This document shows positions 9,631-25,189 of a DNA stretch of 64,000 bases, piece by piece. The position numbers and the translations under genes were made by a program. Each line of letters starts with the position of its first letter. Position 1 is the stretch's first letter. The notes beneath the pieces were generated by a model, which was given only the letters and a program-made list of their open reading frames with translations, searched no databases and was not told the origin of the DNA. Where the stretch lies: NCBI RefSeq assembly GCF_054482525.1, contig NZ_CM137006.1. One strand, given 5' to 3'.

Positions 9631-11631
9631 TCATCCTTGTTGCTGAAGCATGTGGAATAATTGTTCGCAAAGCAAAACACCGTTATTCATTGCTTCTACC
9701 CGTGCCTCGCTTTCTGTATTACAAAATTGTGCCAACACATGTGCCAGCCGATAAAAACCGACCGCGGTGAGGTCATTCGCCAGCAACTCTGCCTGACCAA
9801 TAGCACTCTGTTCCTGATAGCGCCAGCCGTTATGGAGCAGTTGAATAAGTAACGCCTGGCAGCGCATCAGCAACTGATGAGCGGTAGACGGCACAGGCAG
9901 AACGCTGGCAGAAGGTAGCGGTGCCACAGGCGCAGTTTCTGCGTCCAGCGCCCAGGCGCGGGTTTTGGTCATCATTACCCGTGGTTCCAGTGTCAATTGC
10001 CCCTCAACAAAACTGACAAAGCCAGAAACCAGACTCACGGGGTCGTCTGTGTGTTGCAAAAGTGCCGCCATGCGTTCAACGGCAAAAGGCGCGCTGGCTG
10101 AGGCTGGCAGTGATAAAGTCAGCAGATTATCTTCACCTTCGCCGCTGATTACCTGCGCATCCAGCGTCTGGCGGCTGCTATCCCAACCGAGTGAAATACA
10201 CTCAGCGACTGGCAGAATAAATAAGTTATCCACCTGATTAAGAGGCCGTATGCAGGCGGGGGGACGCTGGCGTAAATATTCCCGCAAAGCCACAATGCCC
10301 GACTGGCGCAATGGCGCGCTCAACATTTGCCAGGCGTCTGGCGACAGCGGCACAACGCTGCTTAAGCGGTTGCGGGTAGCTAACAACAGCTCGCCATCGG
10401 CACTGCGTTTTGCTGCTTGTGAAACAATTTGCCCACCTGCCAGTGCGCCAGCCAGAAAACTAAACAGCCGACGCGTCGCTGCCGGTGAGTTTTCCTGTTC
10501 GCTTCTCGGCCAACTACGCGAAAGATGCAAAATACTGCCAGTGTCGGGATCGGTAAACCAGATGCGTAAACCATAATGCTCAATATCCTGCCAGCAACGC
10601 ATACCTAAAGACACCAGCCGCAGATGATCAAGCTTTGCTTCTCCGGCAATGCCAGAGCCAACGACCGTGCGCCACGGCACAGGAGGAACTTCACCAACAC
10701 TGTCGCGCCGGGCCATCTCTTGTGCGCAATTTAATCGACTGTTTAATGCCGCAAGCTGACGTAAGCATTCTCCGACATGATAGTGGCTGGCGCGGGCGTG
10801 GAAGGCATCAACGCTGGCGCGCAGTTGCCGTAGCGATTCACTCACCCAGCGCCAGTTGCAGCGTTCCGCCGCTTGCTGCGCGCGGCTGAAAGCAGCCTTG
10901 TAATGAATAAGCGGCTGGCTGATGCCGCCAAGCCATAACGCCTGGCTTAATTGCTGAACATATTGACGACACGCGTCGCCCTCATCGTTGGCAAACGGAT
11001 CGTCAGATGATGTGACGTGTTCGCTGCGCATCTGCCAGATTAAATGAGTAAATTCCGCTTGCTGCGCTTTGGCCTGGACAAAGGCCTGTACTGCCAGTAC
11101 GACATGTTCGCAAAGTGTGCCGTCAATACAATCACAGCGTGCGAAACGAATGCTGCTGCGGGAATAAAAACGTACATCGCTCATCGGTAAGCGGGCAGAG
11201 GGAATTTCGCCCGGCGTACAGAACAACTCAATGGTGATGCCTTTAGCGACCAGTGTCTGTGCGCGTTTGCGGGTGGCATCGGGCAGGGTAGCCAGTTCTT
11301 CCAGCCAGATTGCCGGATCCCACTCTTCTTCTTTTTCCGTAGGCTGGGTGGTGGCGCAAAGTCGCTGATAACTTAAAACCAGCATCACGCGATGGCGGCA
11401 CATGCCGCTGGCCCCGCAGCTGCATTGAGCCTCTTTCAGTGCCTGACCGTTCGCCAGCTGGGTGCGGACACCGTCACTGAAGGTGGCGATTAAAGCGCCG
11501 TTCTCATGGCTGATTTCCGGGACGTTGCCATTTTCCAGTTCTTTAAGGCTGCGCTTAACAAAACCGGCATTGCTTAACGCCGTCAAAGCTTGTGGTGTCA
11601 GTTCTAATAATTCCGGCCGTAGTGAATTCAT
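9631..11631 (-). CDS. yehQ: SWIM zinc-finger protein YehQ
   Basis: Two CxC...CxH SWIM-like motifs (CSCGASGMCRHRV, CDCIDGTLCEHVV); its ATG overlaps the yehP stop (ATGA); exact start uncertain. Confidence 0.75.
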   Translation of the reverse strand: MNSLRPELLELTPQALTALSNAGFVKRSLKELENGNVPEISHENGALIATFSDGVRTQLANGQALKEAQCSCGASGMCRHRVMLVLSYQRLCATTQPTEKEEEWDPAIWLEELATLPDATRKRAQTLVAKGITIELFCTPGEIPSARLPMSDVRFYSRSSIRFARCDCIDGTLCEHVVLAVQAFVQAKAQQAEFTHLIWQMRSEHVTSSDDPFANDEGDACRQYVQQLSQALWLGGISQPLIHYKAAFSRAQQAAERCNWRWVSESLRQLRASVDAFHARASHYHVGECLRQLAALNSRLNCAQEMARRDSVGEVPPVPWRTVVGSGIAGEAKLDHLRLVSLGMRCWQDIEHYGLRIWFTDPDTGSILHLSRSWPRSEQENSPAATRRLFSFLAGALAGGQIVSQAAKRSADGELLLATRNRLSSVVPLSPDAWQMLSAPLRQSGIVALREYLRQRPPACIRPLNQVDNLFILPVAECISLGWDSSRQTLDAQVISGEGEDNLLTLSLPASASAPFAVERMAALLQHTDDPVSLVSGFVSFVEGQLTLEPRVMMTKTRAWALDAETAPVAPLPSASVLPVPSTAHQLLMRCQALLIQLLHNGWRYQEQSAIGQAELLANDLTAVGFYRLAHVLAQFCNTESEARVEAMNNGVLLCEQLFHMLQQQG

Positions 11632-12764
11632 GACTGAAGATTCTCCGCAAGCCAGGTCGCCAGTTCGCCCGGCGTCATGGCGGCTATTTGTGCGCCGACA
11701 TTAACCAGCGCCTGGGCCGTATCGTGGTCATAGCAAGGTGTTGCGGTGCTATCGAGCGCCGCCAGTCCCAGTACTTTGATGCCGCTCTGGACACACTTTT
11801 TCACCTGATGCGTCAGTAATGATGATGAACCCCCTTCGTAAAAATCGCTCACGAGGATAATGACGCTTTTCGCTGGTTGTTCAATAAGTTGCCGACCATA
11901 TTCCATGGCACTGGCGATATTGGTTCCGCCGCCTAATTGCACTTTCATTAATAACTCTACCGGATCGGCAACGTCTGCCGTGAGATCAACCACGCTGGTG
12001 TCAAACGCCACCAGATGGGTACGAATACCGGGTAACTGCCATAAACAGGTCGCCATCACCGCTGAGTGGATCACCGAGTCCACCATTGATCCGCTTTGAT
12101 CAACCAGTAAGACCAGTTGCCATTGTTCACTGTGGCGCTTAATGCGGCTGTTAAAGCGGGGGGATTCGATATACAACTTGCCGTGTTGCGGATGCCAGTG
12201 TTGCAGGTTGGCGCGCAGCGTACTTTTGAAATCAAAGTTTCGCGCCAGTGGAATAAATGAGCGGCGACGGCGATCGCGGACACCAGAAAAAGCCTGACGA
12301 ACTTCCTTTGCCAGTCGCGCCATAATCTCTTCAACAACCTGGTGCACTATCCGGCGGGCGGCAGCCAGCACTTCGGGATTCATCAGATGTTTAGTGTGCA
12401 AAACGGCGCGTAGCAGGCTTTCAGAAGGCTGCATACGTTCCAGCACGTCGAGATTCGTCACCACATCTTCAATGCCGTAGCGCAGTACGGCATCGCTTTC
12501 CAGCCGCTCGATCACCTGTTGCGGAAACAGCGTGTGAATACTGTTGATCCACTTAGGGGTGGTGAGATTTGAGTCACCTAATCCACCGGAGCGTTCACCA
12601 CGCTGGAGCCGTTCAGGATCGCGCCCATACAGCCACTCCAGCGCGTGGTCTATCTGCCGGGCATTGTCATCCAGCCCACAAAGGGTCGTTTCTGCCGCTT
12701 CGCCAAGAATTAATCGCCAGCGATGTAGCTCACGGGTGGTCAGAAGATCGTTCAGTTCAGACAT
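11628..12764 (-). CDS. yehP: von Willebrand factor A (VWA) domain protein YehP
   Basis: MIDAS-like DQSGSM motif; start placed at MSELNDLL giving 378 aa. Confidence 0.85.
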   Translation of the reverse strand: MSELNDLLTTRELHRWRLILGEAAETTLCGLDDNARQIDHALEWLYGRDPERLQRGERSGGLGDSNLTTPKWINSIHTLFPQQVIERLESDAVLRYGIEDVVTNLDVLERMQPSESLLRAVLHTKHLMNPEVLAAARRIVHQVVEEIMARLAKEVRQAFSGVRDRRRRSFIPLARNFDFKSTLRANLQHWHPQHGKLYIESPRFNSRIKRHSEQWQLVLLVDQSGSMVDSVIHSAVMATCLWQLPGIRTHLVAFDTSVVDLTADVADPVELLMKVQLGGGTNIASAMEYGRQLIEQPAKSVIILVSDFYEGGSSSLLTHQVKKCVQSGIKVLGLAALDSTATPCYDHDTAQALVNVGAQIAAMTPGELATWLAENLQS

Positions 12765-15036
12765 GGAAAACTCCCCAGTGTTGCAGCGATGCCAGTGCCT
12801 GCTGTTCGAGTTGTTGATGATGTGCAATGGCTTGCGGTGGACAATGCAACGGCATTTGCAGCGCTGAAACGGGAAGCTGTGCGAGCTGGTAATGCTCAAG
12901 CACCTGATGCGCCAGCGTCCCGCGTTCTCGTGGTGGTAGCCAGGCCATCGCCGCACGCAAATCGGGCAGGGCGTTAATAAAATCGTCGTCACTCAGTTGA
13001 TTTAAATGACTACTGAAACCGGCGATAAATGCCGGCTGACAGGCCAGTTGATGGCGGGCCAGCGCCAGCAAACCGTGCAGTGCCTCGCCGGATTGTGCCG
13101 GGGATAATTGCGCCAGCATCGTCAGCGCCGCTTCGGCACTGGCGTTGGGATGTTCCAGACGCATCAGTGCGCCAAGAGCCGCGCCGCGATCCAGCGCCGA
13201 GGCATGAATCGCCTGACTGCGGCGCTCAAGTAAGGCTACCGCCGCAGAAAGCGAAACGCCGGGTAAATTAACGCCGCTATGTAGATCGCGCAGGATATGG
13301 CAAAGCGCCTGCCAGCTATGCAGGTGAGCGTGAAACTCCTTTTCCTCCGGTCTGCCGTTGGATTCACACAGCCAGAGTGTGCGATCGATAGCCGCGCATA
13401 ACGTCGTCTGTAATATCTGCGCGCCTTGCATACCGCTAATTTCATCCAGCCGCCATAAGGCGTATAGCACTTCCAGCGCCTGGCCCATTTCGGCAAACTG
13501 ATTTTCCTGGGCGATTAATAATGTAAGTTGCTCCAGTAATTGTTGACTGAAGGACGCCAGACCCGCTAACGCCGCCTGGCTAAGACATGTGGTGATACTG
13601 CCGATTCCACCCGCGTCCAGCATATCGGCTTCTAATTTATTGCGTGCGGCTTCCTGGAGTGTGGCACCAAAGCAGGCGGCCTCAATTAATGCCGCATGTT
13701 GGCTAAGCGGGCGGGTTAATTTCCAGCGTTCTTCACCGTTGCCTGCAAGTGTCAGTGTACTTCCCTGCTGGCGCACAACCCCTGGGATCTCCAGTATTGC
13801 CAGCCGATGTAACACCTGACTTTGCGCTAGTCCATTGGGGTTAAAGCGATTTAAGGTAAGCTCCGCCGGAAGAGAGATTGCGGTACGTTCCAGTTCGCAG
13901 GTGACATCTTTTGGCAGAGGCGGTTGTGGCGTAGAAGGGGCAAGTTTACCGAATCCGTCACCCGCTAATGTGTCTATCAACGTTAGCAGAATCGGATCGG
14001 TATCGGGATGAATAACGCCGCGATAGCTCCACGGCAACGGCGCATTCAGGGCTTCTTTAATCAGCGAGCCTGCTATGGCATCCAGCCAGTCAGTGCGTAA
14101 CGGTAGTGTATGACCGCGCAACTGTGCCAGTGCCATCGCATGCAGATGAGCGGCAGCCATATCCGCTGTTGAAGCAGGCAAGTGGTGCTGGCGCAAACGG
14201 GTAAGAACCGTTTTCAGCAGTTGTTCACCTGCCTGCTGCAAGCCCCACCGCCAGCACCAGTTTTGCCAGACCGGGGCAGGCATACCGGAAAGGTATCCTG
14301 CCAGCACATCAAGGCGCTTTTCACTGTAGGGTGTGAGATAACAACCTGTAACGGCATCATCCAGTAAGAGCAATTCTGGCGTGTTAATTACCTGCGGACA
14401 TTCGCGCCACATTTTTGCCAGTGCCGGAGCGTGCCAGCCACCGCAGACAACTAACACGTCGCCATTATTTTGCTGCATCGCCCATCCAATCCAGCGGGCC
14501 ATAAAGGCTTCGCGCTGACGATTGAGAGCATCTCCGGGGGAGTCGCCCCGCAGTTGGGCAAAATAGTGCGCAAGTGCAGAGGGTAATGCAGTTTGCTGCC
14601 TTTCATCTTCGAACAAGTGATCCCACAGGGTGTCGCTGTTATCCATGCGGGTGGCACGCAGCAGCAAGGTCTGGCTTTCCTCTTGCGTATCAGGCGAATC
14701 GTCCTCTTCTTCACTCTGCGCCCAGCAAGGCAAATCGATGAAGTAAGTTTGTGCCTGAATACGACGAGCGGCTTGTAGCGCCTGCCACTCCGGCGAAAAT
14801 TCAGCAAATGGCGTCCAGGCACCACGCCCGGGGGCCGCACCGTCCTGATACTGGCAATAACTGTAAATAGCTACCGGAAGCTGGTGGGCTAACAACAGTT
14901 CGTCTACCCGGTCATTAAAATCAGCCGGGCCTTCAATCAACACATATCGTGGCCGCTGGCTTTCGATTAACGATTTCACCAGCCGGGCGCAGGCCGGACT
15001 ATGATGCCGGATGCCGACAATTAACGGCTCGCTCAT
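12757..15036 (-). CDS. yehM: Uncharacterised protein YehM
   Basis: Start placed at MSEPLIVGIRHH giving 759 aa; overlaps yehP start and yehL stop. Confidence 0.8.
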   Translation of the reverse strand: MSEPLIVGIRHHSPACARLVKSLIESQRPRYVLIEGPADFNDRVDELLLAHQLPVAIYSYCQYQDGAAPGRGAWTPFAEFSPEWQALQAARRIQAQTYFIDLPCWAQSEEEDDSPDTQEESQTLLLRATRMDNSDTLWDHLFEDERQQTALPSALAHYFAQLRGDSPGDALNRQREAFMARWIGWAMQQNNGDVLVVCGGWHAPALAKMWRECPQVINTPELLLLDDAVTGCYLTPYSEKRLDVLAGYLSGMPAPVWQNWCWRWGLQQAGEQLLKTVLTRLRQHHLPASTADMAAAHLHAMALAQLRGHTLPLRTDWLDAIAGSLIKEALNAPLPWSYRGVIHPDTDPILLTLIDTLAGDGFGKLAPSTPQPPLPKDVTCELERTAISLPAELTLNRFNPNGLAQSQVLHRLAILEIPGVVRQQGSTLTLAGNGEERWKLTRPLSQHAALIEAACFGATLQEAARNKLEADMLDAGGIGSITTCLSQAALAGLASFSQQLLEQLTLLIAQENQFAEMGQALEVLYALWRLDEISGMQGAQILQTTLCAAIDRTLWLCESNGRPEEKEFHAHLHSWQALCHILRDLHSGVNLPGVSLSAAVALLERRSQAIHASALDRGAALGALMRLEHPNASAEAALTMLAQLSPAQSGEALHGLLALARHQLACQPAFIAGFSSHLNQLSDDDFINALPDLRAAMAWLPPRERGTLAHQVLEHYQLAQLPVSALQMPLHCPPQAIAHHQQLEQQALASLQHWGVFHV

Positions 15037-15046
15037 GCATCTTTCC

Positions 15047-16135
15047 TCACGGCAGGCGGTGGCGAGCTTGATAATAAGCCTGCCAGTGAGCTTCTTTATG
15101 TGTGGCGACGCGCTGTTCGAAGTAACGGCGCAGACGCGCGCGATCTTCTTCGTTATCTTTGACGATGGTTCCGGCAATACAGTCCACCAGGTCGGCAGGC
15201 TCCCCCGCGCGATTCGCTAAAAACCAGGCGCGGACACCCACAGCATGGGCCACGTTAACGGCTTCAGCGGTGGACATAATCGCTGTCAGTGTATCCATTG
15301 ACGTTTTCTTTTCGCCGTTGGCACGCAGATCGCGGAACGTGCGCACCAGTAATTCCAGTACCGTGTCAGGCACTTTATGCGGAATACCGCTATGGGCCAG
15401 CAAACGCGCCGAAGCACTGGCGACCAGTTCCAGCTCCTGGGCGAAATCCATAATCGGAAAGACAGTTTCAAAATCGAAGCGACGCTTTAGCGCAGCACTC
15501 ATTTCATTGACGCCGCGATCGCGGGTATTGGCAGTGGCAATAATATTAAAGCCTTCTCGCGCATAGAGCTGACTGGCTTCACCAGTGAGTTCCGGCACCG
15601 TCATTACCCTGTCAGAAAGCATACCTAACAGACAGTCTTGTACTTCCAGCGGTGTACGCGTTATCTCTTCAAAACGGACAATTTTGCCGTCGCGCATTCC
15701 CTGGTAAAGCGGGGCTGGGACCAGCGCTTCCGTTGACGGACCATGGTTGATAAGCAGGGCGTAGTTCCAGCCGTACTTGATTTGATCTTCAGTGGTAGAT
15801 GCGCCGCCCTGGATGGTTAACCCGGCATCGCCGCTAATAGCGGTTGCCAGTAATTCAGACAGGAGAGATTTTGCGGTGCCAGGTTCCCCCACCAACATCA
15901 AACCGCGCCCGGTTGCGAGAGTGACTAACATGCGTTCGACAGCGGAGGGGCTAATCACGACTTTACGGCTAATATTTTGTGCTTCGTCGCCAAGGATAAA
16001 AGCGCGGGCCGCAGGCAAACTTAACTGCCAACCTGGCGGGCAAGGTGCGTTATCATTTTGTTTTAATTTTGCCAGTTCATCGGCGTATAACACAGCGGCA
16101 GGCGGACGCTGCAGATGATTATTCTGCGGTGACAT
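15047..16135 (-). CDS. yehL: MoxR-like AAA+ ATPase YehL
   Basis: Walker A GEPGTAKS and AAA core; start placed at MSPQNNHLQ giving 362 aa. Confidence 0.85.
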   Translation of the reverse strand: MSPQNNHLQRPPAAVLYADELAKLKQNDNAPCPPGWQLSLPAARAFILGDEAQNISRKVVISPSAVERMLVTLATGRGLMLVGEPGTAKSLLSELLATAISGDAGLTIQGGASTTEDQIKYGWNYALLINHGPSTEALVPAPLYQGMRDGKIVRFEEITRTPLEVQDCLLGMLSDRVMTVPELTGEASQLYAREGFNIIATANTRDRGVNEMSAALKRRFDFETVFPIMDFAQELELVASASARLLAHSGIPHKVPDTVLELLVRTFRDLRANGEKKTSMDTLTAIMSTAEAVNVAHAVGVRAWFLANRAGEPADLVDCIAGTIVKDNEEDRARLRRYFEQRVATHKEAHWQAYYQARHRLP

Positions 16136-16567
16136 ATATTCATCCCTGAAATGTATTAATGAAATAAACGATATTTTACGCGCAATAAATGTTTGGCGCA
16201 TTAGTTGTTTGAGCGAAAAATATCTGGAAAGCAGATCACAGTAAATAAAAAAACCTGCTGGTGAGGCAGGTTCTTTGATTTACTACTTTCAGGCCTAACA
16301 CCACGGCCTGTGCAACATCGTGTTCCAACGAACGAATTATAACCATCGGTGGACCCCGTTGCAATTAAGATAATGAGATTTATAATCCTGACTGTTGGGA
16401 CGTTGCGCCGGATCGAACCCATTTCAAGTCCTGGCTACCGGACGGGTGGTGCCGCAGGTAGTGCCCTGATCCGGAGTGCAACATCGTGGTCCAACATACG
16501 TAAACCAGTATCGACAGGCAGTGTAAGGGTAAGGTGCTGGTGTTGCGCTCCTTAATAAGGAGAGCGA

Positions 16568-16657
16568 ATGGACACGCTGACACAAAAGTTAACCGTGCTC
16601 ATTGCTGTACTGGAGCTATTAGTGGCTCTGTTACGGTTGATTGATTTGTTGAAGTAA
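16568..16657 (+). CDS. zorO: Type I toxin ZorO, 29 aa (MDTLTQKLTVLIAVLELLVALLRLIDLLK)
   Basis: Hand-translated; SD aaggagag upstream; hydrophobic helical peptide matching my recollection of ZorO from E. coli O157. Confidence 0.75.
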   Translation: MDTLTQKLTVLIAVLELLVALLRLIDLLK

Positions 16658-16680
16658 TGGGCAAATTGAAACGCAACTAA

Positions 16681-16703
16681 GGGGGAAAACCGCTTCCCCC
16701 TTT
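16681..16703 (+). terminator. Intrinsic terminator of zorO copy 1
   Basis: gggggaa-aaccgc-ttccccc hairpin followed by ttt. Confidence 0.7.
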
Positions 16704-17266: not shown

Positions 17267-17289
17267 TGGGCAAATTGAAACGCAACTAA

Positions 17290-17699: not shown

Positions 17700-20600
17700 T
17701 TAATGGAAAATGACGTCGGGTGCGCTTAACGCCTCACTCAAATCAAACACATCAAGTTCGGCAAAAGTGACAGATTTATTGTCACGGTATACATGAAGAG
17801 AACGGAAGCTCATTAGCGCTTTGCTATCAACATTGTAGTGGTTAAAACCGGATGAAAACTTAAGGACCAGCCGGTACTCGCCCAGGTCATAGACAAATGC
17901 GTTCTCATAGCCTGACTCCCAGCCTTTGTATCGCATTCCCATAAGTTGCCCAACGGTAGCAGATTTACCTTCCCAGCGATTCAAACTATTACTGGCTGAC
18001 TCGTCAGGCGTGAGCAGTACTGTGCGCCGTGCCAATTGGCGAAAAGGCGGCATAATTTCGTAATCGGCAAAAAGCTGTGCAAACTCACTGCGCATTTCTG
18101 CTGCCATTTCTAACGGGTGGGCAATGCCAATCAGAGCATCGGCAGGCAGGTCAATTGGCTCATCTTGCTCATTGCAGAACTCCCCCTCAGCGGCCACACG
18201 AAAGGCGTTGAGTAAACGACGCGGTTCATTTGCCGGATAAACACCCCATATTAATCGCTGAGTAACCAGACGGGTAAAGGGATGATTAACAAACAGAGAA
18301 TGAAAATCTGCCAGCGACCAGCGTCGGGTGGTGCGCAGGGCAGTTTCAAGACGCGGGAGCAGGTTTTTGCTCACCTGAGTGGCATCTTTTTTTAGCCCTT
18401 TTAGTCGGGCCAGTGCCTCGGGTGCTTTCAGTTGATCGTCATCGGCGCGCAACCGGGGAACGCTTTTCTGGCGAACGTTTTGCTGATCAAAGATAACCGG
18501 GTTAAGGTTTTCATCGAAGCGAACGGTAAATTGCCGTGGACCAAAATCAAAAATCAACGCCTGCGGATCATCAAGACCCAGTGTTGGGACTAATCTGTCC
18601 GCTAACTGTTCCTGGCTTAGCCCTCGATTTTCTGCGACCACCTGAAGAAATTCCGCCGCGTTATCACGTAAGGGGCGGGATTTCGCCCGTTGCGATATAT
18701 GATGCAGCTGTATCAGTGCCATATCATTATTCATCTGAGTAAGGATGTTCAGGCCGCTGACGGCACGGGCAGATTTGCCTTCCTGTGGCCAGGCAAGGAT
18801 CTGTGTTGTTAGATCCCGTGCCGTGCTTTCGTCGCCAAAGAGACTTAACGCCAGAAATGCCCAGTTGTCTTTTGCGGGAGCACCAGCTTGTTGCCACGCG
18901 GTGAAAAGATCCCAGGCAAAGGCTGCCAGCGTTTGCGGCTGGCAAAACGTTTTCAGCTGTTCCAGTCCGCTATAAAAACGTCCGCCCTGGGTAAAGCGCA
19001 GCATTTCGCCGATAATTTCCAGAGCGTCATCAGTAACAGGTTGATTATTCGTGATAAGGCGCGGCCTGGACCACATTGCCGGCTGCCAGAAATCAGGGGC
19101 TTTTGGAATGCGTGTCGGGTAAATCTCTATTGGACTCTGTTTAAGTAATTGCTCCAGGGCAGGCCATACATCTTTACGCTGCCAGCGGTTTGCCACGGTT
19201 TGCAGTAACTCGCCATGTCCCTGTTCGTAAAGTAAACGCAGGGCAAGTAATGCAGCTTCGCTATTATCGCTGGATTTGGTGAAGACAAGAGGGATAAGTG
19301 CAGTAGCTGTATGTTCCGGCCATTGTAAAATCCACTGGCGGGCCAGATCTCGCTGCGCCGCGAAACGTCGCCAGACGCGGGCAACGGGCAGGGCCAGTTC
19401 GGTTGCGCCGAAATTTAAAATTAACGGAAATGTTTCTTTTGGACGATGTGAAAAAGCCAACAGCAGACCTGGTAGAGCATCCAATCCGAAGATACTGAGA
19501 AAATAGTCCTCACCCGCAGACAGATGCTTTTTCTCATTGATACGTAGCCAGAAAGTCAAAGCCATCTCACGCGGCAACTGCGCCAATAAATACAGGTTCC
19601 AGATACTCTTTTCCCGACGATAGCGTGAGTAGCTGTCATTTTCCCATATGTTAATTAACACTTCTACGTGACCGCTGTGAAGCGCCTGTTCTGCTAATTG
19701 AGCTTCCGGGGAGCTCCAGCCATTCATGATCTCTTCAACCCGCCCTGGGTAGTAATGCCACTGAACAATGAGTGAATTGCGTGCAGCATCCAGTTTTCCG
19801 GGGAGTATATAATTCAAAAACAGCCATACATCATCTCCAAAACCCAGCTCCTGTAGTACAACTCGTCCACTTTTTTGTTCCATGCGTTCCGCAAGAGATT
19901 CCGTGCTGAAATAACGGGCAGACGCAGTGGCGGCAAGCCTCTCTCGTTCGCCTGGTTGCCAGTAAACTTGCGGCGTTAATTCGAACGGTGCCAAATCAAG
20001 ACGTGGAACTGTCATTTTTTTCTTACTACGCCACGGTGGTGAAACGAGGATTTCAGGCATTTGGCTGTTATCGGTGCTATCAATAACCGTTTTGGACGGT
20101 GCCGATAAATAACTATTCAGCATTGCCCGGGCTTGAGTACTTAACCACGGCATCACCTCTTCTGCCAGTTGTGGCTGCGATGCCATCAGCGTTTGTAACA
20201 GCGTACGCCAGTATTCATCGCGTGCTTTTTGCTGTGCAGGCAGCTTTTTGTCTTCAATGATTGGATAACCAGGGCGCGCAGGTGGTTCTTTTAACGCCAG
20301 CAGTTCTGCTAATGCGGCGAGCGTCGCATGGGGGAAGTTTTTACTGTATTTAGCCACACGTTGCAGGCTGGGTTTGTTTTTATCAGCAACTAACAGCAAG
20401 GTGCGGATGACTTGCGGATGGTTAATTTGTACCAGCAGACTGCCGCAATCTTCTTTATGGGCATACATCGCGAGGCGCGGAACGGCTGCCAGTCCTTGTT
20501 CGCGCAAAAGGGCGGCGCAGGCCGCGTAGCCGAAGCGGTTTTCTTGTGACATGTAGCTGGCTTCGCGATCGCTAAATACGTCCAGGCCCCAGTATCGTTC

Positions 20601-21332
20601 GAGTTTTTTTACCGCCGTATTATCAGTAGCAACGACCTTTAACCACTCCTTTGAATGGAGACTTGACCGGGAGCTTTCAAAACTGGCGAGTTCATTGGCT
20701 ATTTCAGGTTTTTCCGGGAGGATCAGCGCAATAAAAGGACGGCGAATTTTGGGTATTCCTGGCAGTGCGGCAATGAGTTTATCGGCACAACGCTGCCAGC
20801 AACTTTCCTCTGCCAGCGACAGATGCTTACGCAAACGGAGATCGAAATCGTTATAGGTCGCGGAGCCATAACCGTAGCTATAGTCCTCGTCCTGATACTG
20901 CAAAGTGACGACCAGTGAGTCACTCTCATAACGCCGCGCAATGCACTGACGCGATATCACTACATCCGTCGCATATTCCAGCCCCTCTTGTTGCACGATT
21001 TCATCAAGTAACTGCTGGCTGTCATTTTGCGCGATACAGATCAGAGCCGCCATGGTAAGGGCTGGGATTGACGGTTTATGCTCGCCAGTCAAATTGATTG
21101 CCTGCTGGATGGCGGACTGCCACTCCAGTGAGCATTTATCATAATTCCAGGTGATATTTTCCTTCTGGCCTGCTTGTTGTAGTAATTCATCTCCCAATGT
21201 CTGGATGAGACTTCCAGTGATAACGGACACTGGTTCGCCCGGCCAGCGACGATGACTGAGCGGCGTTTTGCCTTTTTTATATTTCAGTTCCAGTTGGGCG
21301 TTATCCGCCAGCCACGGTAATTCCTTGTCCAT
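17700..21332 (-). CDS. yehI: Large DUF4132-family protein YehI (1210 aa)
   Basis: Length and synteny; clear paralogy to the adjacent molR ORF across most of its length. Confidence 0.85.
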   Translation of the reverse strand: MDKELPWLADNAQLELKYKKGKTPLSHRRWPGEPVSVITGSLIQTLGDELLQQAGQKENITWNYDKCSLEWQSAIQQAINLTGEHKPSIPALTMAALICIAQNDSQQLLDEIVQQEGLEYATDVVISRQCIARRYESDSLVVTLQYQDEDYSYGYGSATYNDFDLRLRKHLSLAEESCWQRCADKLIAALPGIPKIRRPFIALILPEKPEIANELASFESSRSSLHSKEWLKVVATDNTAVKKLERYWGLDVFSDREASYMSQENRFGYAACAALLREQGLAAVPRLAMYAHKEDCGSLLVQINHPQVIRTLLLVADKNKPSLQRVAKYSKNFPHATLAALAELLALKEPPARPGYPIIEDKKLPAQQKARDEYWRTLLQTLMASQPQLAEEVMPWLSTQARAMLNSYLSAPSKTVIDSTDNSQMPEILVSPPWRSKKKMTVPRLDLAPFELTPQVYWQPGERERLAATASARYFSTESLAERMEQKSGRVVLQELGFGDDVWLFLNYILPGKLDAARNSLIVQWHYYPGRVEEIMNGWSSPEAQLAEQALHSGHVEVLINIWENDSYSRYRREKSIWNLYLLAQLPREMALTFWLRINEKKHLSAGEDYFLSIFGLDALPGLLLAFSHRPKETFPLILNFGATELALPVARVWRRFAAQRDLARQWILQWPEHTATALIPLVFTKSSDNSEAALLALRLLYEQGHGELLQTVANRWQRKDVWPALEQLLKQSPIEIYPTRIPKAPDFWQPAMWSRPRLITNNQPVTDDALEIIGEMLRFTQGGRFYSGLEQLKTFCQPQTLAAFAWDLFTAWQQAGAPAKDNWAFLALSLFGDESTARDLTTQILAWPQEGKSARAVSGLNILTQMNNDMALIQLHHISQRAKSRPLRDNAAEFLQVVAENRGLSQEQLADRLVPTLGLDDPQALIFDFGPRQFTVRFDENLNPVIFDQQNVRQKSVPRLRADDDQLKAPEALARLKGLKKDATQVSKNLLPRLETALRTTRRWSLADFHSLFVNHPFTRLVTQRLIWGVYPANEPRRLLNAFRVAAEGEFCNEQDEPIDLPADALIGIAHPLEMAAEMRSEFAQLFADYEIMPPFRQLARRTVLLTPDESASNSLNRWEGKSATVGQLMGMRYKGWESGYENAFVYDLGEYRLVLKFSSGFNHYNVDSKALMSFRSLHVYRDNKSVTFAELDVFDLSEALSAPDVIFH

Positions 21333-21341
21333 GCTCTTTCC

Positions 21342-24300
21342 TTATTCAAACAGGGCTTCAATATCGTTAATTAGCTCGCTGGCGGTGATGGCATCGAGTA
21401 CGGAGAGCTGCGCTTCCTGTGTTGAATTACTCCTCCAGCCATAGCTTTCTGCTTTGCCTTCCCATAGCCACAGCTTGCTTAAGATTTGCTCGGCACTCAG
21501 TTCGGCTGGTGACATACCCACCGCAAAACCTTCATCGATTTCCATGATTAACGACCAGCGGCCCAGAGGTTTGATCATCCAGCCGATCCAGCCTGCATCC
21601 AGCGGGGTGCCCTTTATCCAACCTTTATTCGCCAGTCCCATGACCCGACCGCTCGGGCATTTTCTGCCTGCCCAGCGGATCAATTCGCTGGCATTGCGCT
21701 CGGTTTCTGTCAGGGCGTAACTGTTACGGTCGAGCTGGCGAAACGGCGGTAGCAGTTCGTAGTCGGCAAAAAGCTGACCAAAGGCGGCAGCATCCGTGGG
21801 TGATATTTCCAGAACGTGAGGAATACCAACAGAGATATCGCCTTCCGGCGGGGTGAAAAGATCATCGTCAGCGGTGCTGTAGCTGTTATCTTCCGCCACG
21901 CGAAAGCAAGCCAGTAGCTCGTTTTCGGCGCTATAAACGCCCCAAATCAGACGGCGGGTTAAGTGACGAACCAGCGGATGCTCAACCAGGAAGAGCTGAA
22001 AGTTTTCCGGCGACCAGCGGCGGCGCAGGCACATGGCGGATTCCAGCCTTGCTACCTGCTGGGCGGCGACGGTACGCGCATCTTTTTTCAGCAATTTGTA
22101 GCGGTTAACAGCATCGTTCGCCTGTGATTCATCATCGCTTTTATTGGGTTTAGGTAAGTCTTTCAGGCGGCTGCCGGAAACATCGCGCACAAACGGTTTT
22201 AAGGTTTCATCAAAGCTGACGGTGAACTGCCGTGGGCCAAAATCCAGCAGCAGCGAACCGTTATCATCCAGACCGAGATCCGGTGCTAACCGGTCTTCAA
22301 GTTCCGCCACCGTGAGTTCGCGGCTCTCGGCAATGTCGGCAATTTTTTCTTTCGCCCGCTCCTGTAAGGCTTTGAATTTCAGTTTCTGGGCGATGCCGTT
22401 AAGCTGCATCAGGGCGATATCGCTGCCGATAGCAGCGAGAATATCCAACCCAACGGTGGCACGTTTATGCTGAGATTCGCCAGGCCAGGCGCGGATTAAT
22501 GGCGTCAGTTTGCGGGCGGCGTCATCGTTACCGAGAACGCCTAACGCAGTGAACGCCCAACTCTCTTTCGACGGCGCGCCAGCGGTCTGCCAGGCGGTAA
22601 ACAGATCCCAGGCAAATTCAGCCAGTGAGTCGGCGGTACAGGCATCTTTCACCTGCAATAATCCCGGATACAGCGCCTCCTCCTGATGGAAGCGGAGCAT
22701 TTCACCGAGGTGCTGGAGTGCGCTATCGGGCAGTGATTGGGCGCTTGCTTTTAATACCGGGCGGTTCCAGAGCGATGGCTGATAAAAGGCCGGAAGAGTG
22801 GGGATTTTTGTCGGGTGATTATCTAAGGGATCGAGCGCAAGCAGAGCGTTCACCGCGTCTGTTACTTCCGGCTGGTTATAACGCCGGGCGATTTCTTGCA
22901 GTAATGGCTGATGACCGTTTTCGGTAAGCATACGCAAGGCAGCGCGGGCGTTATCCTGTGCTTCACCGGATTTGCCGAGCGCCGAAGGTAGCAGGCCGGT
23001 AATGGCGTGTTCCGGGTATTTCAGCAGCCAGGTGCGGGCGTCTTGTCGTAGGGTTTTGAGTTTGTTGAAGGCGCGGGCGATCAGTGGCGCTAATTCGATA
23101 GCCGCAAAATATTGTGCTACAGGCAGAGCTTCTTGTGGATAGCGTGAAAAGGAGTGAATAAAACCCTGTAACCCAGTGAGTTGCAGGTGCGTCATGACAA
23201 ACTCGACACCGACGTGTGGCTCTTTACTGAGGACATTCCACGCCTGCGCTGTCTTTTCGATAGGCAGGGTGGCTAACATGTAAAGCTGCCATTCCCGTTG
23301 ATAGGAGTGCCAGAAGGTTTTAAATTCGCTGATCAGCGCGGAATAATGTCCCCTTTGCCAGAGATCTATAGCAGCATCAGGCGCTTTCATATACTGGCCA
23401 TTATTCCAGCGATTGAAACCCAGACGTGCCAGGTAGTTCTGAATATCCTCTTTTTGGCCGATGTCTATTTGATGTGCGTGCCAGCGATGCCTTGCATGAA
23501 TCTCTTTTTCTGCCGTCTCGGTCAATGTGCAGCATGACTCCAACGATAATGGCGTTAAATCCAATACCGGTATAACAGATTTTTTCTTTTTCGAAAGCCA
23601 GGGCGGTGAGACTAATACGGCAGGCAGTAGATCGGCGCAGGCATGGTTTGAGGGCTGTGTCAGTTGTTGCAGGCATGCTTTCAGCACTGCAACTGCGGGT
23701 GTTGAGAGCCAGGGAGTGACCTGTTCTGCTAGTGCCGGTTGCGAGATAAGCATCGTCATTAGCATAATGCGCCAACTATTCTCTTCTTTTTGCGCAAGAA
23801 GTTCCGCCAGTGCCGCCAGTGCCGTGTGTGGGAACGCAGCGCAAGCCTTAGTCATTCGTTCATGGCAGCGTTTAGTTTTGCCAGACACACGTATAAGTAG
23901 CATTAATGCTTGTGGGTGATTGATCTCTGCGAGAATACTTCCGCAAAGATCAGCATAAGCATAGGGGGCGAAGCGAGCGATTCCGGCAATCCCTTGCTCC
24001 TGCAAAACGGTGACATTCCAGATGCAACCATGGTAATAGTCATTAAAAAGGTCGTACGCGCAATAAGATTCCAGTGCTTTGAGCAAGGAAGATTCTTGTA
24101 CAACAAGTTTCAGCCATTCAACAGTTTGGATATTTTTCTGCTCCAGTAACCGTCGTGCGATTTCTTCTGCAATCTCCGGGCGTTCCGGTAGCATTAGCGC
24201 TACCATCGGTTGTTGAACGGGAGGAATATCAGGCAAAGCTGTAATGAATTTATCTACACAGCGTTGCCACAAAGTTTCTTCTGCTAGAGCCAAATGTTTA

Positions 24301-25091
24301 CGCAGTCGAACGTCAAAGGGGGTAACACAATGTGCATGGTTTAATAATGGCTGAAAAGTAATGTGTATGCTTATTCTGTGATAAGTGCAATCGAACGAGA
24401 TATATTGCATGGCAATAAACATATCCACGGCAAATTCTAGTCCGTAGACATAGACAATTTCATCCATGAGTTCAGGGCATTCGTCCCAGAATTTACGTGA
24501 AACCAGAACAACCTGTACAGCCAACGCAGCAGGAGAAAGTGGACCATTAGCGAGAGCTTCATTGATATTCTGCTGCCAGTTAGCAGAACATGCACTGAAA
24601 TCGTATGTTGTTATTTTTCCTGATAGATTATGAATATCCTGACCTAAATTCATAAGGAGGCTGTCTTGTGGTTCGCTTACAGCATCCCCAGGAAAACGTC
24701 GGGAAGGTAAGGCCTCCTGAGACTTTTTCTCCGATAGATGGATAGTGGAATCATCTGTCAGCCACGGGCATGGTGTCTCAGCAGGTTCAGCAACCATACT
24801 TTGGTCAAATACGACTGTGGTTTCTGCCACGCCAGTTGTATCTACTTCGATCGTTTCTATTTTGATTGCGGGTTGGGATGGCGAAGATAATTCTTCCACA
24901 TACCCCTTCTTCACCTTCTCCGCAATCAGCTTCAGTCCCGCTTTTTCCGCCGCTGCTGCATCCGCAAAGCTTTTTACCTGGTTTTGCCCTTTGGTGCCAA
25001 CTTTTCCCCAACAGATATGCAACTCGTTTCCCTGTTGCTCCACCGCCCAGAATTTATGTGATTTTTCGTCCTGAAAGATAAAGTGCCTCAT
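21342..25091 (-). CDS. molR: Intact MolR: N-terminal WGR domain plus DUF4132 region (1249 aa)
   Basis: N-terminal FWAVEQQGNELHICWGKVGTKGQ is WGR-like; remainder is paralogous to YehI; uninterrupted here. Confidence 0.8.
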   Translation of the reverse strand: MRHFIFQDEKSHKFWAVEQQGNELHICWGKVGTKGQNQVKSFADAAAAEKAGLKLIAEKVKKGYVEELSSPSQPAIKIETIEVDTTGVAETTVVFDQSMVAEPAETPCPWLTDDSTIHLSEKKSQEALPSRRFPGDAVSEPQDSLLMNLGQDIHNLSGKITTYDFSACSANWQQNINEALANGPLSPAALAVQVVLVSRKFWDECPELMDEIVYVYGLEFAVDMFIAMQYISFDCTYHRISIHITFQPLLNHAHCVTPFDVRLRKHLALAEETLWQRCVDKFITALPDIPPVQQPMVALMLPERPEIAEEIARRLLEQKNIQTVEWLKLVVQESSLLKALESYCAYDLFNDYYHGCIWNVTVLQEQGIAGIARFAPYAYADLCGSILAEINHPQALMLLIRVSGKTKRCHERMTKACAAFPHTALAALAELLAQKEENSWRIMLMTMLISQPALAEQVTPWLSTPAVAVLKACLQQLTQPSNHACADLLPAVLVSPPWLSKKKKSVIPVLDLTPLSLESCCTLTETAEKEIHARHRWHAHQIDIGQKEDIQNYLARLGFNRWNNGQYMKAPDAAIDLWQRGHYSALISEFKTFWHSYQREWQLYMLATLPIEKTAQAWNVLSKEPHVGVEFVMTHLQLTGLQGFIHSFSRYPQEALPVAQYFAAIELAPLIARAFNKLKTLRQDARTWLLKYPEHAITGLLPSALGKSGEAQDNARAALRMLTENGHQPLLQEIARRYNQPEVTDAVNALLALDPLDNHPTKIPTLPAFYQPSLWNRPVLKASAQSLPDSALQHLGEMLRFHQEEALYPGLLQVKDACTADSLAEFAWDLFTAWQTAGAPSKESWAFTALGVLGNDDAARKLTPLIRAWPGESQHKRATVGLDILAAIGSDIALMQLNGIAQKLKFKALQERAKEKIADIAESRELTVAELEDRLAPDLGLDDNGSLLLDFGPRQFTVSFDETLKPFVRDVSGSRLKDLPKPNKSDDESQANDAVNRYKLLKKDARTVAAQQVARLESAMCLRRRWSPENFQLFLVEHPLVRHLTRRLIWGVYSAENELLACFRVAEDNSYSTADDDLFTPPEGDISVGIPHVLEISPTDAAAFGQLFADYELLPPFRQLDRNSYALTETERNASELIRWAGRKCPSGRVMGLANKGWIKGTPLDAGWIGWMIKPLGRWSLIMEIDEGFAVGMSPAELSAEQILSKLWLWEGKAESYGWRSNSTQEAQLSVLDAITASELINDIEALFE

Positions 25092-25189
25092 TCTGCATCC
25101 CTGTAATTTTATCCAGTTGAATGCTGATGCTACCAGTATTTATGCGGGTTAGAGAGAGACAAAATCGCAAGAAAACAACTTTAGGAATT

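What the first reader, a model, noticed from the sequence alone, without database searches (positions are those of the whole stretch)
9631..16135. yehLMPQ: translationally coupled MoxR AAA+ / VWA / SWIM zinc-finger module of unknown function
All four genes overlap at their junctions (12 bp, 8 bp, 4 bp), implying stoichiometric co-expression. The module combines a MoxR-type AAA+ ATPase (YehL), a VWA protein with a MIDAS motif (YehP), a large unknown protein (YehM) and a SWIM zinc-finger protein (YehQ). Its substrate is not established, and it sits beside the TA locus and molR/yehI.
Basis: partly seen in the sequence, partly recalled or inferred. Interest (0 to 1): 0.4.

Follow-up and report, generated by a model that had tools for sequence, protein, structure and literature searches.

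The report
Five-gene MoxR ATPase machine, function unknown
The E. coli yehLMPQ genes are real and tightly packed, but they are only four parts of a widely conserved five-part ATP-driven protein machine whose fifth part (MolR/YehI) is unusually variable between E. coli strains; nobody yet knows what the machine does.

Summary
The window is E. coli chromosome. The four genes lie on the minus strand at the stated coordinates: yehL (MoxR AAA+), yehM (DUF5682), yehP (VWA with a complete MIDAS motif) and yehQ. The yehM/yehP (8 bp) and yehP/yehQ (4 bp) overlaps are real. The claimed 12-bp yehL/yehM overlap is not: there is a 10-nt spacer holding a Shine-Dalgarno sequence.

New findings:
- In 80 genomes from four phyla the four genes sit next to a WGR-DUF4132 gene (the molR/yehI family), so the unit has five genes.
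- The YehM N-terminus looks like a Tiki/TraB/ChaN-type hydrolase domain with invariant His/Glu/His. Natural YehM-YehP fusions exist.
- YehQ has two conserved SWIM zinc fingers, not one.
- Within E. coli, the first ~700 residues of MolR are a deeply divergent allele. Only 153 of 5426 genomes share this window's class, while yehLMPQ and the flanking genes are ordinary.
- No PADLOC defence model matches, no solved structure matches YehM, YehP or YehQ (for MolR only its WGR domain does), and no paper assigns a function.

Best reading: a self-contained MoxR-VWA remodelling machine with a conserved engine and swappable nucleic-acid-binding partners, linked to DNA damage or conflict. Its substrate is unknown. 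It is a new variant of a known kind, of moderate interest.

The parts
15047..16135 (-). yehL: MoxR-class AAA+ ATPase (362 aa). Walker A GEPGTAKS is residues 83-90 (nt 15866-15889). Walker B-like VRFEEITR has E156/E157. Sensor-1 is N203; arginines are R218/R219.
   Evidence: Pfam AAA_5 119 bits. Motif residues are identical in 80 of 80 homologues. Translation checked. The closest solved relatives by sequence are midasin AAA domains, and weakly MoxR 2r44.
15037..15049 (-). yehL-yehM junction: the TGA stop (15049-15047), a GAGGA Shine-Dalgarno sequence overlapping it, and a 10-nt spacer before the yehM ATG (15036).
   Evidence: Read from the sequence. RefSeq annotation agrees.
12757..15036 (-). 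yehM: DUF5682 protein (759 aa). The N-terminal ~330 residues (nt ~14047-15036) form an alpha/beta domain of Tiki/TraB/ChaN type. R10, H11, E35, E83, D101, E143, R175, G199 and H202 are invariant. The C-terminal ~400 residues form helical HEAT/ARM-like repeats.
11628..12764 (-). yehP: VWA_CoxE-type von Willebrand A protein (378 aa). It has a complete MIDAS motif: DQSGS at residues 222-226 (nt 12087-12101), T281 and D307. It overlaps yehM by 8 bp.
   Evidence: Pfam VWA_CoxE 236 bits. MIDAS residues are identical in 77 of 77 homologues. Translation checked. Junction read.
9631..11631 (-). yehQ: double-SWIM zinc-finger protein (666 aa). SWIM-1 is C70xC72x5C78xH80 (nt 11392-11424). SWIM-2 is C166xC168x5C174xH176 (nt 11104-11136). 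Helical bundles and a beta-rich middle domain follow. It overlaps yehP by 4 bp.
17700..21332 (-). yehI: DUF4132 paralogue without a WGR domain (1210 aa). It belongs to the fifth component family of the conserved cassette.
   Evidence: Pfam DUF4132 161 bits. DUF4132 genes sit next to yehLMPQ homologues in 77 of 83 loci.
21342..25091 (-). molR, intact here: a WGR-DUF4132 protein (1249 aa). WGR is residues 5-67 (nt 24891-25079) and the DUF4132 domain is residues 973-1158 (nt 21618-22175). Residues ~91-700 form a hypervariable 'head'; residues ~701-1249 form a conserved 'body'.
   Evidence: Pfam WGR 65 bits and DUF4132 170 bits. The WGR domain matches PDB 2ra8 at E 8e-18. Within E. coli, aa identity is 34-72% for residues 91-700 and 92-97% for 701-1249. 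Only 153 of 5426 genomes share this 5' allele class.
25101..25116 (-). LexA-box-like site CTGGATAAAATTACAG, 9 nt upstream of the molR ATG.
   Evidence: Found. molR is listed among LexA-regulated genes with a known SOS box (PMC6590174). A similar box lies upstream of the Klebsiella grimontii orthologue (L007). None was found in other taxa.

Best explanation
yehLMPQ is the four-gene core of a self-contained, cytoplasmic, five-component MoxR-VWA remodelling machine.

Shown here:
- YehL has every catalytic motif of a MoxR AAA+ ATPase.
- YehP has a complete metal-ion-dependent adhesion site (MIDAS).
- YehM has a Tiki/TraB/ChaN-like domain with invariant His/Glu/His, followed by helical repeats.
- YehQ has two SWIM zinc fingers.
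- A WGR-DUF4132 protein (MolR, and its paralogue YehI) is inherited together with the other four across four phyla.

Inferred:
- YehL forms a hexameric ring.
- YehM and YehP together act as one large VWA adaptor. They are fused into a single polypeptide in some lineages, and resemble CbbO, NorD and CobT in layout.
- The MIDAS site grips an acidic residue of a partner protein, and ATP hydrolysis remodels that partner.
- The remodelled partners are the co-encoded SWIM protein and WGR-DUF4132 protein. These are the fast-evolving, predicted nucleic-acid-binding parts.
- Remodelling either switches the YehM hydrolase-like site or loads and unloads these proteins on DNA.

Favoured role (inference): a response to DNA damage or foreign DNA, with the variable MolR/YehI 'heads' giving specificity. 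In E. coli the system is normally silent. H-NS binds upstream of yehL, and molR is under LexA and BglJ-RcsB control. It is also crippled in K-12, where molR is a pseudogene.
For: Gene identity and motifs. All Walker, sensor, arginine and MIDAS residues are 100% conserved in 77-80 homologues.

Five-gene unit:
- The order DUF4132-YehL-YehM-YehP-YehQ recurs in Gamma-, Beta- and Deltaproteobacteria and in Actinobacteria, in unrelated surroundings.
- DUF4132 lies after YehQ in Burkholderia, and between DUF5682 and VWA in Agrobacterium.
- No other flanking gene family recurs in more than 12 of 75 loci.
- Pairwise identities of the five proteins correlate at r 0.80-0.98.

YehM-YehP as one unit: five separate 50%-identity clusters are DUF5682-VWA_CoxE fusions.

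YehM enzyme-like site.

Engine versus variable partners:
- Mean pairwise identity is YehL 0.79, YehP 0.74, YehM 0.57, DUF4132 0.49 and YehQ 0.46.
- There are 1-4 tandem DUF4132 paralogues per locus.
- The MolR head is an allele replaced within E. coli.

Nucleic-acid and DNA-damage link:
- WGR domain and two SWIM fingers.
- LexA box at molR (PMC6590174).
- WGR and DUF4132 genes belong to the Deinococcus DdrO radiation regulon (PMC8533742).

Silencing and regulation: PMC3686432 and PMC3950696.

Location: no transmembrane segments, so the proteins are cytoplasmic.
Against: - No interaction, ATPase activity, DNA binding or hydrolase activity has been measured for any component.
- Co-transcription is not shown.
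- LexA-type boxes were found only in Escherichia and Klebsiella, not in Serratia, Erwinia, Beta- or Alphaproteobacteria, Xanthomonadales or Actinobacteria. The SOS link may therefore be a local acquisition.
- ChaN, one member of that superfamily, is a haem binder rather than an enzyme.
- Some lineages lack an adjacent DUF4132 gene (L084; Hymenobacter), and orphan DUF5682 genes exist.
- The machine's client could be an unlinked protein.
Confidence: 0.5

Rival explanations
1. It is an anti-phage or anti-mobile-element immune system. The variable MolR/YehI heads sense an invader's protein or DNA ends. The MoxR-VWA engine converts this into activation of the YehM hydrolase as the effector.
For: - Deeply divergent, recombining alleles of the MolR head occur within one species, while the flanking genes are ordinary.
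- DUF4132 is expanded into tandem paralogues.
- The phyletic distribution is patchy, with 59-79% YehL identity across phyla, and the cassette is present on megaplasmids.
- The flanking genes are never conserved.
- H-NS silences the operon (PMC3686432) and molR is SOS-inducible.
- MoxR-vWA pairs are known cores of predicted conflict systems (Pfam bpMoxR description).
Against: - None of the six proteins hits any of 5027 PADLOC models, which include candidate systems.
- yehLMPQ is close to core in E. coli (5202 of 5426 genomes) and sits between housekeeping genes (metG, apbC, btsSR), not in a defence island.
- Flanks in other genera are mostly metabolic.
- dN/dS in the variable head is 0.16-0.31, not above 1.
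- There are essentially no phage-borne homologues or decoys.
- The bpMoxR score of 18.4 is below the cut-off of 27.
Confidence: 0.22
2. It is a dedicated maturation or metal-cofactor-insertion chaperone for an enzyme, like CoxD/CoxE, NorQ/NorD, CbbQ/CbbO or the CobS/CobT/CobN and BchI/BchD/BchH chelatases. The large DUF4132 or YehM protein would play the substrate-holding role.
For: - Every characterised MoxR-VWA pair works this way (PMC3893208).
- YehP belongs to the VWA_CoxE Pfam family at 236 bits.
- YehM relatives hit the ChaN haem-binding family of the Tiki superfamily.
- A ~1250-aa partner recalls CobN/BchH in size.
- molR carries an old 'molybdate metabolism regulator' label (PMC3950696, PMC8533742).
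Against: - No candidate client enzyme is conserved next to the cassette in 75 loci.
- Scores against chelatase, GvpN and MadB models are far below their cut-offs: 18.5 vs 779, 33 vs 267, and 30 vs 475.
- A maturation factor gives no reason for WGR and SWIM domains, for SOS control, or for hypervariable alleles of one subunit.
- In Deinococcus, the molybdate link was not supported by expression data (PMC8533742).
Confidence: 0.13
3. One reading: yehLMPQ is an autonomous four-gene module, and molR/yehI are merely neighbours.
For: - In E. coli the two gene groups are separated by ~1.5 kb holding a type I toxin-antitoxin pair with its own promoters and terminators.
- They have different known regulators (PMC3686432, PMC3950696).
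- Some lineages have AAA-DUF5682-VWA-SWIM with no adjacent DUF4132 gene.
Against: - A DUF4132 gene is adjacent in 77 of 83 loci, and most of the six exceptions are cut by contig ends.
- It is embedded between yehM and yehP homologues in Agrobacterium.
- It overlaps the AAA gene by 4 bp in Streptomyces.
- It co-evolves with the other four at r 0.80-0.90.
- The E. coli spacer is a late insertion, 0.3 kb in MG1655 against 1.2 kb elsewhere (PMC2887945).
Confidence: 0.1
4. It is a cryptic, decaying remnant of horizontal transfer with no current function in E. coli.
For: - H-NS silences it (PMC3686432).
- molR is a pseudogene in K-12 (PMC3950696).
- A successful ST131 sublineage carries a transposon in the DUF4132 region (PMC9334617).
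- The genes were deleted in the reduced-genome strain DGF-298 (PMC10652928).
Against: - All six ORFs are intact here.
- dN/dS is 0.02-0.18 for yehLMPQ and 0.1-0.3 for molR/yehI.
- Catalytic residues are 100% conserved.
- The genes are retained in 96% of complete E. coli genomes.
Confidence: 0.05

Closest known systems
RavA-ViaA (E. coli MoxR AAA+ with its VWA cofactor)
   Same: Both are a MoxR-class AAA+ ATPase encoded next to a VWA/MIDAS protein in one compact operon, in the same organism. Both have low, stress-linked expression.
   Different: - They belong to different MoxR subfamilies (RavA vs YehL, PMC3893208).
- RavA-ViaA has two genes and no DUF5682, SWIM or WGR-DUF4132 partner.
- RavA has LARA and triple-helical domains that YehL lacks.
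- RavA-ViaA has known interactors (LdcI, Nuo, Frd); YehL has none.
CbbQ-CbbO, NorQ-NorD and CoxD-CoxE (CGN-type and related MoxR-VWA maturation pairs)
   Same: All combine an AAA_5 ring ATPase with a large adaptor carrying a C-terminal VWA/MIDAS domain that grips the client. YehP is in the same Pfam family as CoxE. YehM+YehP, fused in some lineages, resemble the ~600-800-aa CbbO and NorD adaptors in layout.
   Different: - Those systems are encoded beside their client enzyme (Rubisco, NO reductase, CO dehydrogenase). No client enzyme is conserved beside the yeh cassette.
- The adaptor's N-terminal part here is a Tiki-like domain.
- Two further predicted nucleic-acid-binding proteins are obligatory partners here.
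Class I chelatases (BchI/BchD/BchH, CobS/CobT/CobN)
   Same: Both have a three-tier layout: an AAA+ motor, a VWA/MIDAS subunit, and a very large (~1200-1300 aa) third subunit.
   Different: There is no sequence relationship beyond the AAA+ and VWA folds: the TIGR02442 score is 18.5 against a cut-off of 779. DUF4132 and DUF5682 are unrelated to CobN/BchH. No tetrapyrrole pathway genes lie nearby.
Midasin/Rea1 (eukaryotic ribosome-assembly AAA+ with a MIDAS domain)
   Same: Midasin AAA_5 modules are the best solved-structure sequence matches to YehL (E 7e-10). Both share the AAA_5 motor plus MIDAS logic, in which the MIDAS site pulls on a partner protein.
   Different: Midasin is one 4700-4900-aa polypeptide with six AAA modules in a single chain. 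The yeh system is split into separate subunits and has extra Tiki-like, SWIM and WGR parts.
MoxR-vWA-beta-propeller ternary conflict systems (Pfam bpMoxR)
   Same: Both have a MoxR plus vWA core joined to large variable partner proteins, and both are patchily distributed.
   Different: YehL scores 18.4 bits against a cut-off of 27 for bpMoxR. There is no beta-propeller or VMAP-type gene, and the partners are SWIM, DUF5682 and WGR-DUF4132 instead.
Tiki/TraB/PrgY/GumN/ChaN/erythromycin-esterase superfamily (for the YehM N-terminal domain)
   Same: - 13 of 64 relatives hit Pfam ChaN/Tiki, and single ones hit TraB_PrgY_gumN and Erythro_esteras.
- The G-x-R-H...E...G-G-x-H pattern is invariant. From memory, it matches the paired GxxH-plus-Glu signature of the superfamily.
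   Different: - All hits are below family thresholds.
- YehM adds ~430 residues of helical repeats and always works beside a MoxR-VWA pair.
- Known members act alone, as a secreted or membrane protease, an esterase or a haem binder.

Membership tests
MoxR AAA+ ATPases (Pfam AAA_5; YehL subfamily) | AAA_5 domain above the Pfam threshold | tested here: met
   119.3 bits against a cut-off of 22
MoxR AAA+ ATPases (Pfam AAA_5; YehL subfamily) | Intact Walker A, Walker B, sensor-1 and arginine residues | tested here: met
   GEPGTAKS 83-90, FEE 155-157 (Glu-Glu instead of the usual Asp-Glu), N203, R218/R219. All are 80 of 80 conserved.
MoxR AAA+ ATPases (Pfam AAA_5; YehL subfamily) | Genetic linkage to a VWA/MIDAS protein | tested here: met
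   yehP lies two genes downstream, and the linkage is kept in 78 of 83 loci, fewer only where contigs end. E. coli YehL is the named type of the subfamily (PMC3893208).
MoxR AAA+ ATPases (Pfam AAA_5; YehL subfamily) | Hexameric ring with ATPase activity stimulated by the VWA partner | not testable with these tools
   Needs biochemistry.
VWA domain with MIDAS (Pfam VWA_CoxE) | DxSxS...T...D metal-ion-dependent adhesion site | tested here: met
   D222, S224, S226, T281 and D307, all 77 of 77 conserved. VWA_CoxE 236 bits against a cut-off of 26.4.
SWIM zinc finger | CxCxnCxH signature above the Pfam threshold | tested here: met
   33 bits against a cut-off of 19.6. There are two copies, C70/C72/C78/H80 and C166/C168/C174/H176, each with n = 5, conserved in 71-73 of 73 homologues.
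Tiki/TraB/ChaN superfamily (YehM N-terminal domain) | Sequence match to a member family above threshold | tested here: not met
   E. coli YehM hits no member family. 13 of 64 relatives hit PF04187 (best E 2e-4), and one each hits PF01963 and PF05139 at E 0.01-0.1.
Tiki/TraB/ChaN superfamily (YehM N-terminal domain) | Shared fold | tested here: inconclusive
   [not shown]
Tiki/TraB/ChaN superfamily (YehM N-terminal domain) | Paired GxxH motifs plus a conserved Glu (signature recalled from memory) | tested here: met
   G8-I-R-H11, E35 and G199-G-W-H202 are invariant in 104 representatives.
Known or candidate anti-phage defence systems (PADLOC-DB v2) | Any component matches a defence-system model | tested here: not met
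   Zero hits for YehL, YehM, YehP, YehQ, YehI and MolR at E <= 0.01.
MoxR-vWA-beta-propeller ternary systems | bpMoxR-type ATPase and a beta-propeller/VMAP partner gene | tested here: not met
   bpMoxR 18.4 bits against a cut-off of 27. No such partner appears in any of 80 loci.
Class I chelatase / GvpN / MadB ATPase systems | Score above the NCBIfam equivalog cut-off | tested here: not met
   Cob-chelatase 18.5 vs 779, GvpN 33 vs 267, MadB 30 vs 475.
LexA (SOS) regulon | CTGT-N8-ACAG-type box in the promoter region | tested here: met
   For molR only: CTGGATAAAATTACAG at 25116-25101, with one mismatch. The literature lists molR as having a known SOS box (PMC6590174). No box was found upstream of yehL or yehI.
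LexA (SOS) regulon | Conservation of the box in orthologous loci of other taxa | tested here: not met
   Present in Klebsiella grimontii only. Absent from 75 other loci when scanned with phylum-appropriate motifs.
Translationally coupled operon | Overlapping or abutting stop and start codons at every junction | tested here: inconclusive
   Two of three junctions overlap. yehL/yehM has a 10-nt spacer whose Shine-Dalgarno sequence lies over the stop codon. No promoter-like site lies inside the operon. The transcript itself was not examined.

The most novel reading that the evidence does not exclude
The cassette is a previously unrecognised class of MoxR-VWA-driven sensor-effector system. Recombining, strain-specific WGR-DUF4132 'heads' recognise a DNA lesion, DNA end or invader component. 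The YehL ring, working through the YehM-YehP adaptor, then switches on a Tiki-like hydrolase. That would make it either a new immune system or a bacterial counterpart of AAA+-assisted, DNA-activated proteases that clear DNA-protein crosslinks.
Probability: 0.22. Interest if true: 0.8.

Novelty: new variant of a known kind. Interest (0 to 1): 0.48.

Why it matters
The YehL subfamily is an uncharacterised MoxR subfamily and one of only two MoxR systems in E. coli (PMC3893208). The DUF5682 family alone has about 3200 clusters at 50% identity.

Three results turn a vague 'y-gene operon' into something that can be tested:
- The unit has five parts, not four.
- One part carries an enzyme-like site.
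- One part is replaced allele by allele within a species.

They also offer a possible reason why K-12 genetics has been silent. K-12 lacks an intact molR, lacks the toxin-antitoxin insert, and keeps the operon under H-NS.

If the variable heads confer specificity, this would be a new design for a MoxR machine, with a conserved engine and exchangeable recognition subunits.

Tried and rejected
- PADLOC scan of all six proteins gave nothing.
- NCBIfam gave only far-sub-threshold GvpN, MadB and chelatase hits.
- PDB sequence and profile searches found nothing for YehM, YehP or YehQ. For MolR only the WGR domain matched.
- Foldseek of YehM against the PDB gave no hit at E <= 0.001. The top hit, ZSWIM8, had prob 0.33 and I disregarded it.
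- A search for a sixth conserved gene or a client enzyme in the flanks of 75 loci found none.
- LexA-type boxes in non-enteric loci were not found. I therefore did not claim SOS control as a property of the family.
- Phage-borne homologues: one unannotated faecal contig only.
- hhalign of the Hymenobacter SWIM-DUF5691 protein against the YehQ and DUF4132 profiles was not significant.
- All ten literature searches found no functional assignment. Many 'yehL' hits are the surname Yehl. The one YehQ hit in a crosslinking study was an entrapment decoy.
- I looked for an alternative yehM start that would give the 12-bp overlap. None exists in frame.

Full report
**1. What is in the window**

The stretch 9631-16135 is E. 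coli chromosome. It is 100% identical to strain 19KM1776, and 5202 of 5426 complete E. coli genomes carry at least 80% of it, mostly at 95-99% identity. All genes are on the minus strand:
- yehL 15047-16135
- yehM 12757-15036
- yehP 11628-12764
- yehQ 9631-11631

Upstream, in the direction of transcription, lie yehI (17700-21332) and an intact molR (21342-25091), then metG. Downstream lie yehR, yehS and btsSR.

**2. The junctions**

- yehP/yehQ share ATGA, a 4-bp overlap.
- yehM/yehP share ATGTCTGA, an 8-bp overlap.
- yehL/yehM do not overlap. TGA ends at 15047 and ATG begins at 15036, so 10 nt lie between them. GAGGA sits over the stop codon. No in-frame start codon exists upstream until a TTG 141 nt further up.

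Across 80 related loci (starts chosen by my own heuristic):
- the M/P junction overlaps or abuts in 63 of 78
- the P/Q junction overlaps or abuts in 59 of 72
- the L/M junction overlaps or abuts in 28 of 79 and has a 1-30-nt gap in 36 more

No promoter-like site lies inside the operon, and only weak terminator-like hairpins do. Co-transcription itself was not tested.

**3. The four proteins**

YehL
- It is an AAA_5/MoxR ATPase.
- Its motifs are Walker A GEPGTAKS, an unusual but invariant Glu-Glu Walker B (FEE 155-157), sensor-1 N203 and R218/R219. All are identical in 80 of 80 homologues.
- Its nearest solved relatives by sequence are midasin AAA modules.
- The literature knows it only as the type of the uncharacterised 'YehL subfamily' (PMC3893208).

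YehP
- It is a VWA_CoxE-family protein with a complete MIDAS motif (D222, S224, S226, T281, D307), identical in 77 of 77 homologues.

YehQ
- It has two SWIM fingers, not one: CSCGASGMCRH at residues 70-80 and CDCIDGTLCEH at 166-176. Both are conserved.
- A confident model (pLDDT 89.8) shows helical bundles and a beta-rich middle domain with no informative solved analogue.

YehM (DUF5682)
- It is not featureless. In 104 representatives at 28-46% identity, R10, H11, E35, E83, D101, E143, R175, G199, H202, R307 and R314 never change.
- The model shows an N-terminal alpha/beta domain and C-terminal HEAT/ARM-like repeats.
- 13 of 64 homologues give sub-threshold hits to Pfam 'ChaN, Tiki superfamily'. 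Single homologues hit TraB_PrgY_gumN and erythromycin esterase.
- I read this as a probable Tiki-superfamily domain with a hydrolase-like His/Glu/His site. The support is moderate, not proof.

None of the proteins has a membrane segment.

**4. The unit has five genes**

I scanned one genome for each of 100,044 species for YehM relatives. This gave 80 loci from Gamma-, Beta- and Deltaproteobacteria and Actinobacteria.
- tblastn with the six E. coli proteins shows the order DUF4132 (MolR-like) - YehL - YehM - YehP - YehQ in almost all of them.
- 77 of 83 loci have an adjacent DUF4132 gene, and most of the six without one are cut by contig ends.
- In Burkholderia the DUF4132 gene follows YehQ.
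- On an Agrobacterium vitis plasmid it sits between DUF5682 and VWA.
- On a Streptomyces plasmid it overlaps the AAA gene by 4 bp.
- In Serratia fonticola the five genes sit in surroundings completely different from those in E. coli.
- No other flanking family recurs in more than 12 of 75 loci. There is therefore no conserved client enzyme and no sixth part.
- Pairwise identities of the five proteins correlate at r 0.80-0.98.
- Five distinct 50%-identity clusters are natural DUF5682-VWA_CoxE fusions. This argues that YehM and YehP work as one adaptor.
- The DUF5682 family has about 3200 clusters at 50% identity.
- It occurs on some megaplasmids but essentially not in phages.

In E. coli the DUF4132 genes are split from yehL by a late insertion, the tandem zorO-orzO/zorP-orzP type I toxin-antitoxin pair. 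This insertion is absent from MG1655 (PMC2887945).

**5. Conserved engine, variable partners**

Mean pairwise identity falls from YehL 0.79 and YehP 0.74, to YehM 0.57, to DUF4132 0.49 and YehQ 0.46. DUF4132 genes occur as 1-4 tandem paralogues.

- metG is 99% identical in amino acids, apbC 100% and yehL 99%. yehM, yehP and yehQ are 95-98%.
- MolR is only 74% identical overall.
- MolR residues 91-700 are 34-72% identical with saturated synonymous divergence. Residues 701-1249 are 92-97% identical with ordinary dS of 0.16-0.27.
- dN/dS stays at 0.16-0.31, so both alleles are functional.
- YehI shows a milder mosaic in its first 300-600 residues.

Only 153 of 5426 genomes carry this window's class of the 5' 2.1 kb of molR. 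Coverage in the other genomes suggests several further classes.

MolR thus has a swappable 'head' (WGR plus a variable helical region) and a conserved 'body' (including DUF4132). The same split is seen between genera.

**6. Regulation (from papers, plus the sequence)**

- molR is listed among LexA-regulated genes with a known SOS box (PMC6590174).
- The window has CTGGATAAAATTACAG 9 nt before the molR ATG. The Klebsiella grimontii orthologue has a similar box. I found none in any other taxon.
- BglJ-RcsB activates the molR promoter, and molR is disrupted in K-12 (PMC3950696).
- yehL and yehM rise in hns/stpA mutants, with H-NS bound on the upstream intergenic region (PMC3686432). That region is AT-rich here.
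- In Deinococcus, WGR and DUF4132 genes belong to the DdrO radiation regulon (PMC8533742).

**7. Interpretation**

The safest statement is this: a cytoplasmic five-component MoxR-VWA remodelling machine of the YehL subfamily. YehL is the motor. YehM plus YehP form a composite MIDAS adaptor carrying an enzyme-like domain. YehQ and MolR/YehI are co-evolving, predicted nucleic-acid-binding partners and are probably the clients or specificity subunits.

I favour a role in responding to DNA damage or foreign DNA, for these reasons:
- the WGR and SWIM domains
- SOS and DdrO control of the genes
- the hypervariable heads
- the tandem paralogues
- the patchy distribution

I cannot separate a repair-type role from an immune one.
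- Against immunity: no PADLOC hit, near-core status in E. coli, housekeeping neighbours, and dN/dS below 1.
- Against the classical 'metal-cofactor maturation' role of MoxR-VWA pairs: no linked client enzyme, and features such a role would not need.

**8. Novelty**

The genes and the MoxR subfamily are long annotated, so the bare observation is not new. I did not find these four points in the literature I could search:
- the five-part architecture
- the Tiki-like site in YehM
- the double SWIM in YehQ
- the within-species allelic replacement of the MolR head

The system is a new variant of the MoxR-VWA kind rather than a new kind. Interest is moderate. It would rise sharply if the heads prove to be recognition modules.

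Noticed in passing
window 16213-17310 (OrzO-P RNAs 16247-16322 and 16858-16931, minus strand; toxin ORFs 16568-16657 and 17177-17266, plus strand): A tandem ~610-bp duplication carries two type I toxin-antitoxin pairs (zorO-orzO and zorP-orzP). Each toxin is the identical 29-aa peptide MDTLTQKLTVLIAVLELLVALLRLIDLLK. The pair is inserted between yehI and yehL and splits the ancestral five-gene cassette. Consensus promoters and terminators flank each copy (PMC2887945).
   Followed up: yes
window 22992-25091 (molR codons ~1-700), and more weakly 19500-21332 (yehI N-terminus): The molR 5' 2.1 kb is a rare, deeply divergent allele. It is 34-72% aa identical to the common E. coli allele, with saturated dS, and is shared by only 153 of 5426 genomes. 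The rest of the gene and all neighbouring genes are ordinary. Coverage patterns suggest several allele classes.
   Followed up: partly
window 11891-11903 (minus strand, yehP codons ~288-292): [quoted passage not shown] Here it reads ATG GAA TAT GGT CGG C, so the internal GGAG stimulator is lost. The frameshift would truncate YehP between MIDAS T281 and D307.
   Followed up: partly
[not shown]
   Followed up: no
L088 4183-12422 (Hymenobacter sp. HDW8 plasmid): This is a sister architecture in Bacteroidota: a 1009-aa protein with an N-terminal SWIM motif (CSCPSRVFPCKH) and a C-terminal DUF5691 domain, then AAA ATPase, a hydrophobic 203-aa protein, DUF5682 and VWA. No DUF4132 gene is present. This suggests the AAA/DUF5682/VWA/SWIM set is the older core, with exchangeable large partners.
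   Followed up: partly
L084 10001-13540; L085 3096-6764: Single-polypeptide DUF5682-VWA_CoxE fusions of ~1180-1220 aa occur in metagenomic contigs. In L084 the cassette has no adjacent DUF4132 gene but is followed by a Ser/Thr kinase gene.
   Followed up: partly
window ~14674-14721 (YehM residues 106-121): YehM has an acidic, predicted-disordered loop, SEEEDDSPDTQEESQ (pLDDT < 50). It could be an internal ligand for the YehP MIDAS site. This is pure speculation and was not tested.
   Followed up: no
L086 3611-4336 and L088 2796-3371: A NUDIX hydrolase gene lies a few kb upstream of the cassette in both the Agrobacterium and the Hymenobacter plasmids. The Agrobacterium locus also has an adenylosuccinate-synthetase-like gene immediately upstream and a T6SS VgrG gene nearby. 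This may be coincidence.
   Followed up: no
L089 6067-8457: An orphan DUF5682 gene (796 aa) has no MoxR, VWA or SWIM neighbour and sits among housekeeping genes. The Tiki-like protein can therefore exist outside the cassette.
   Followed up: no
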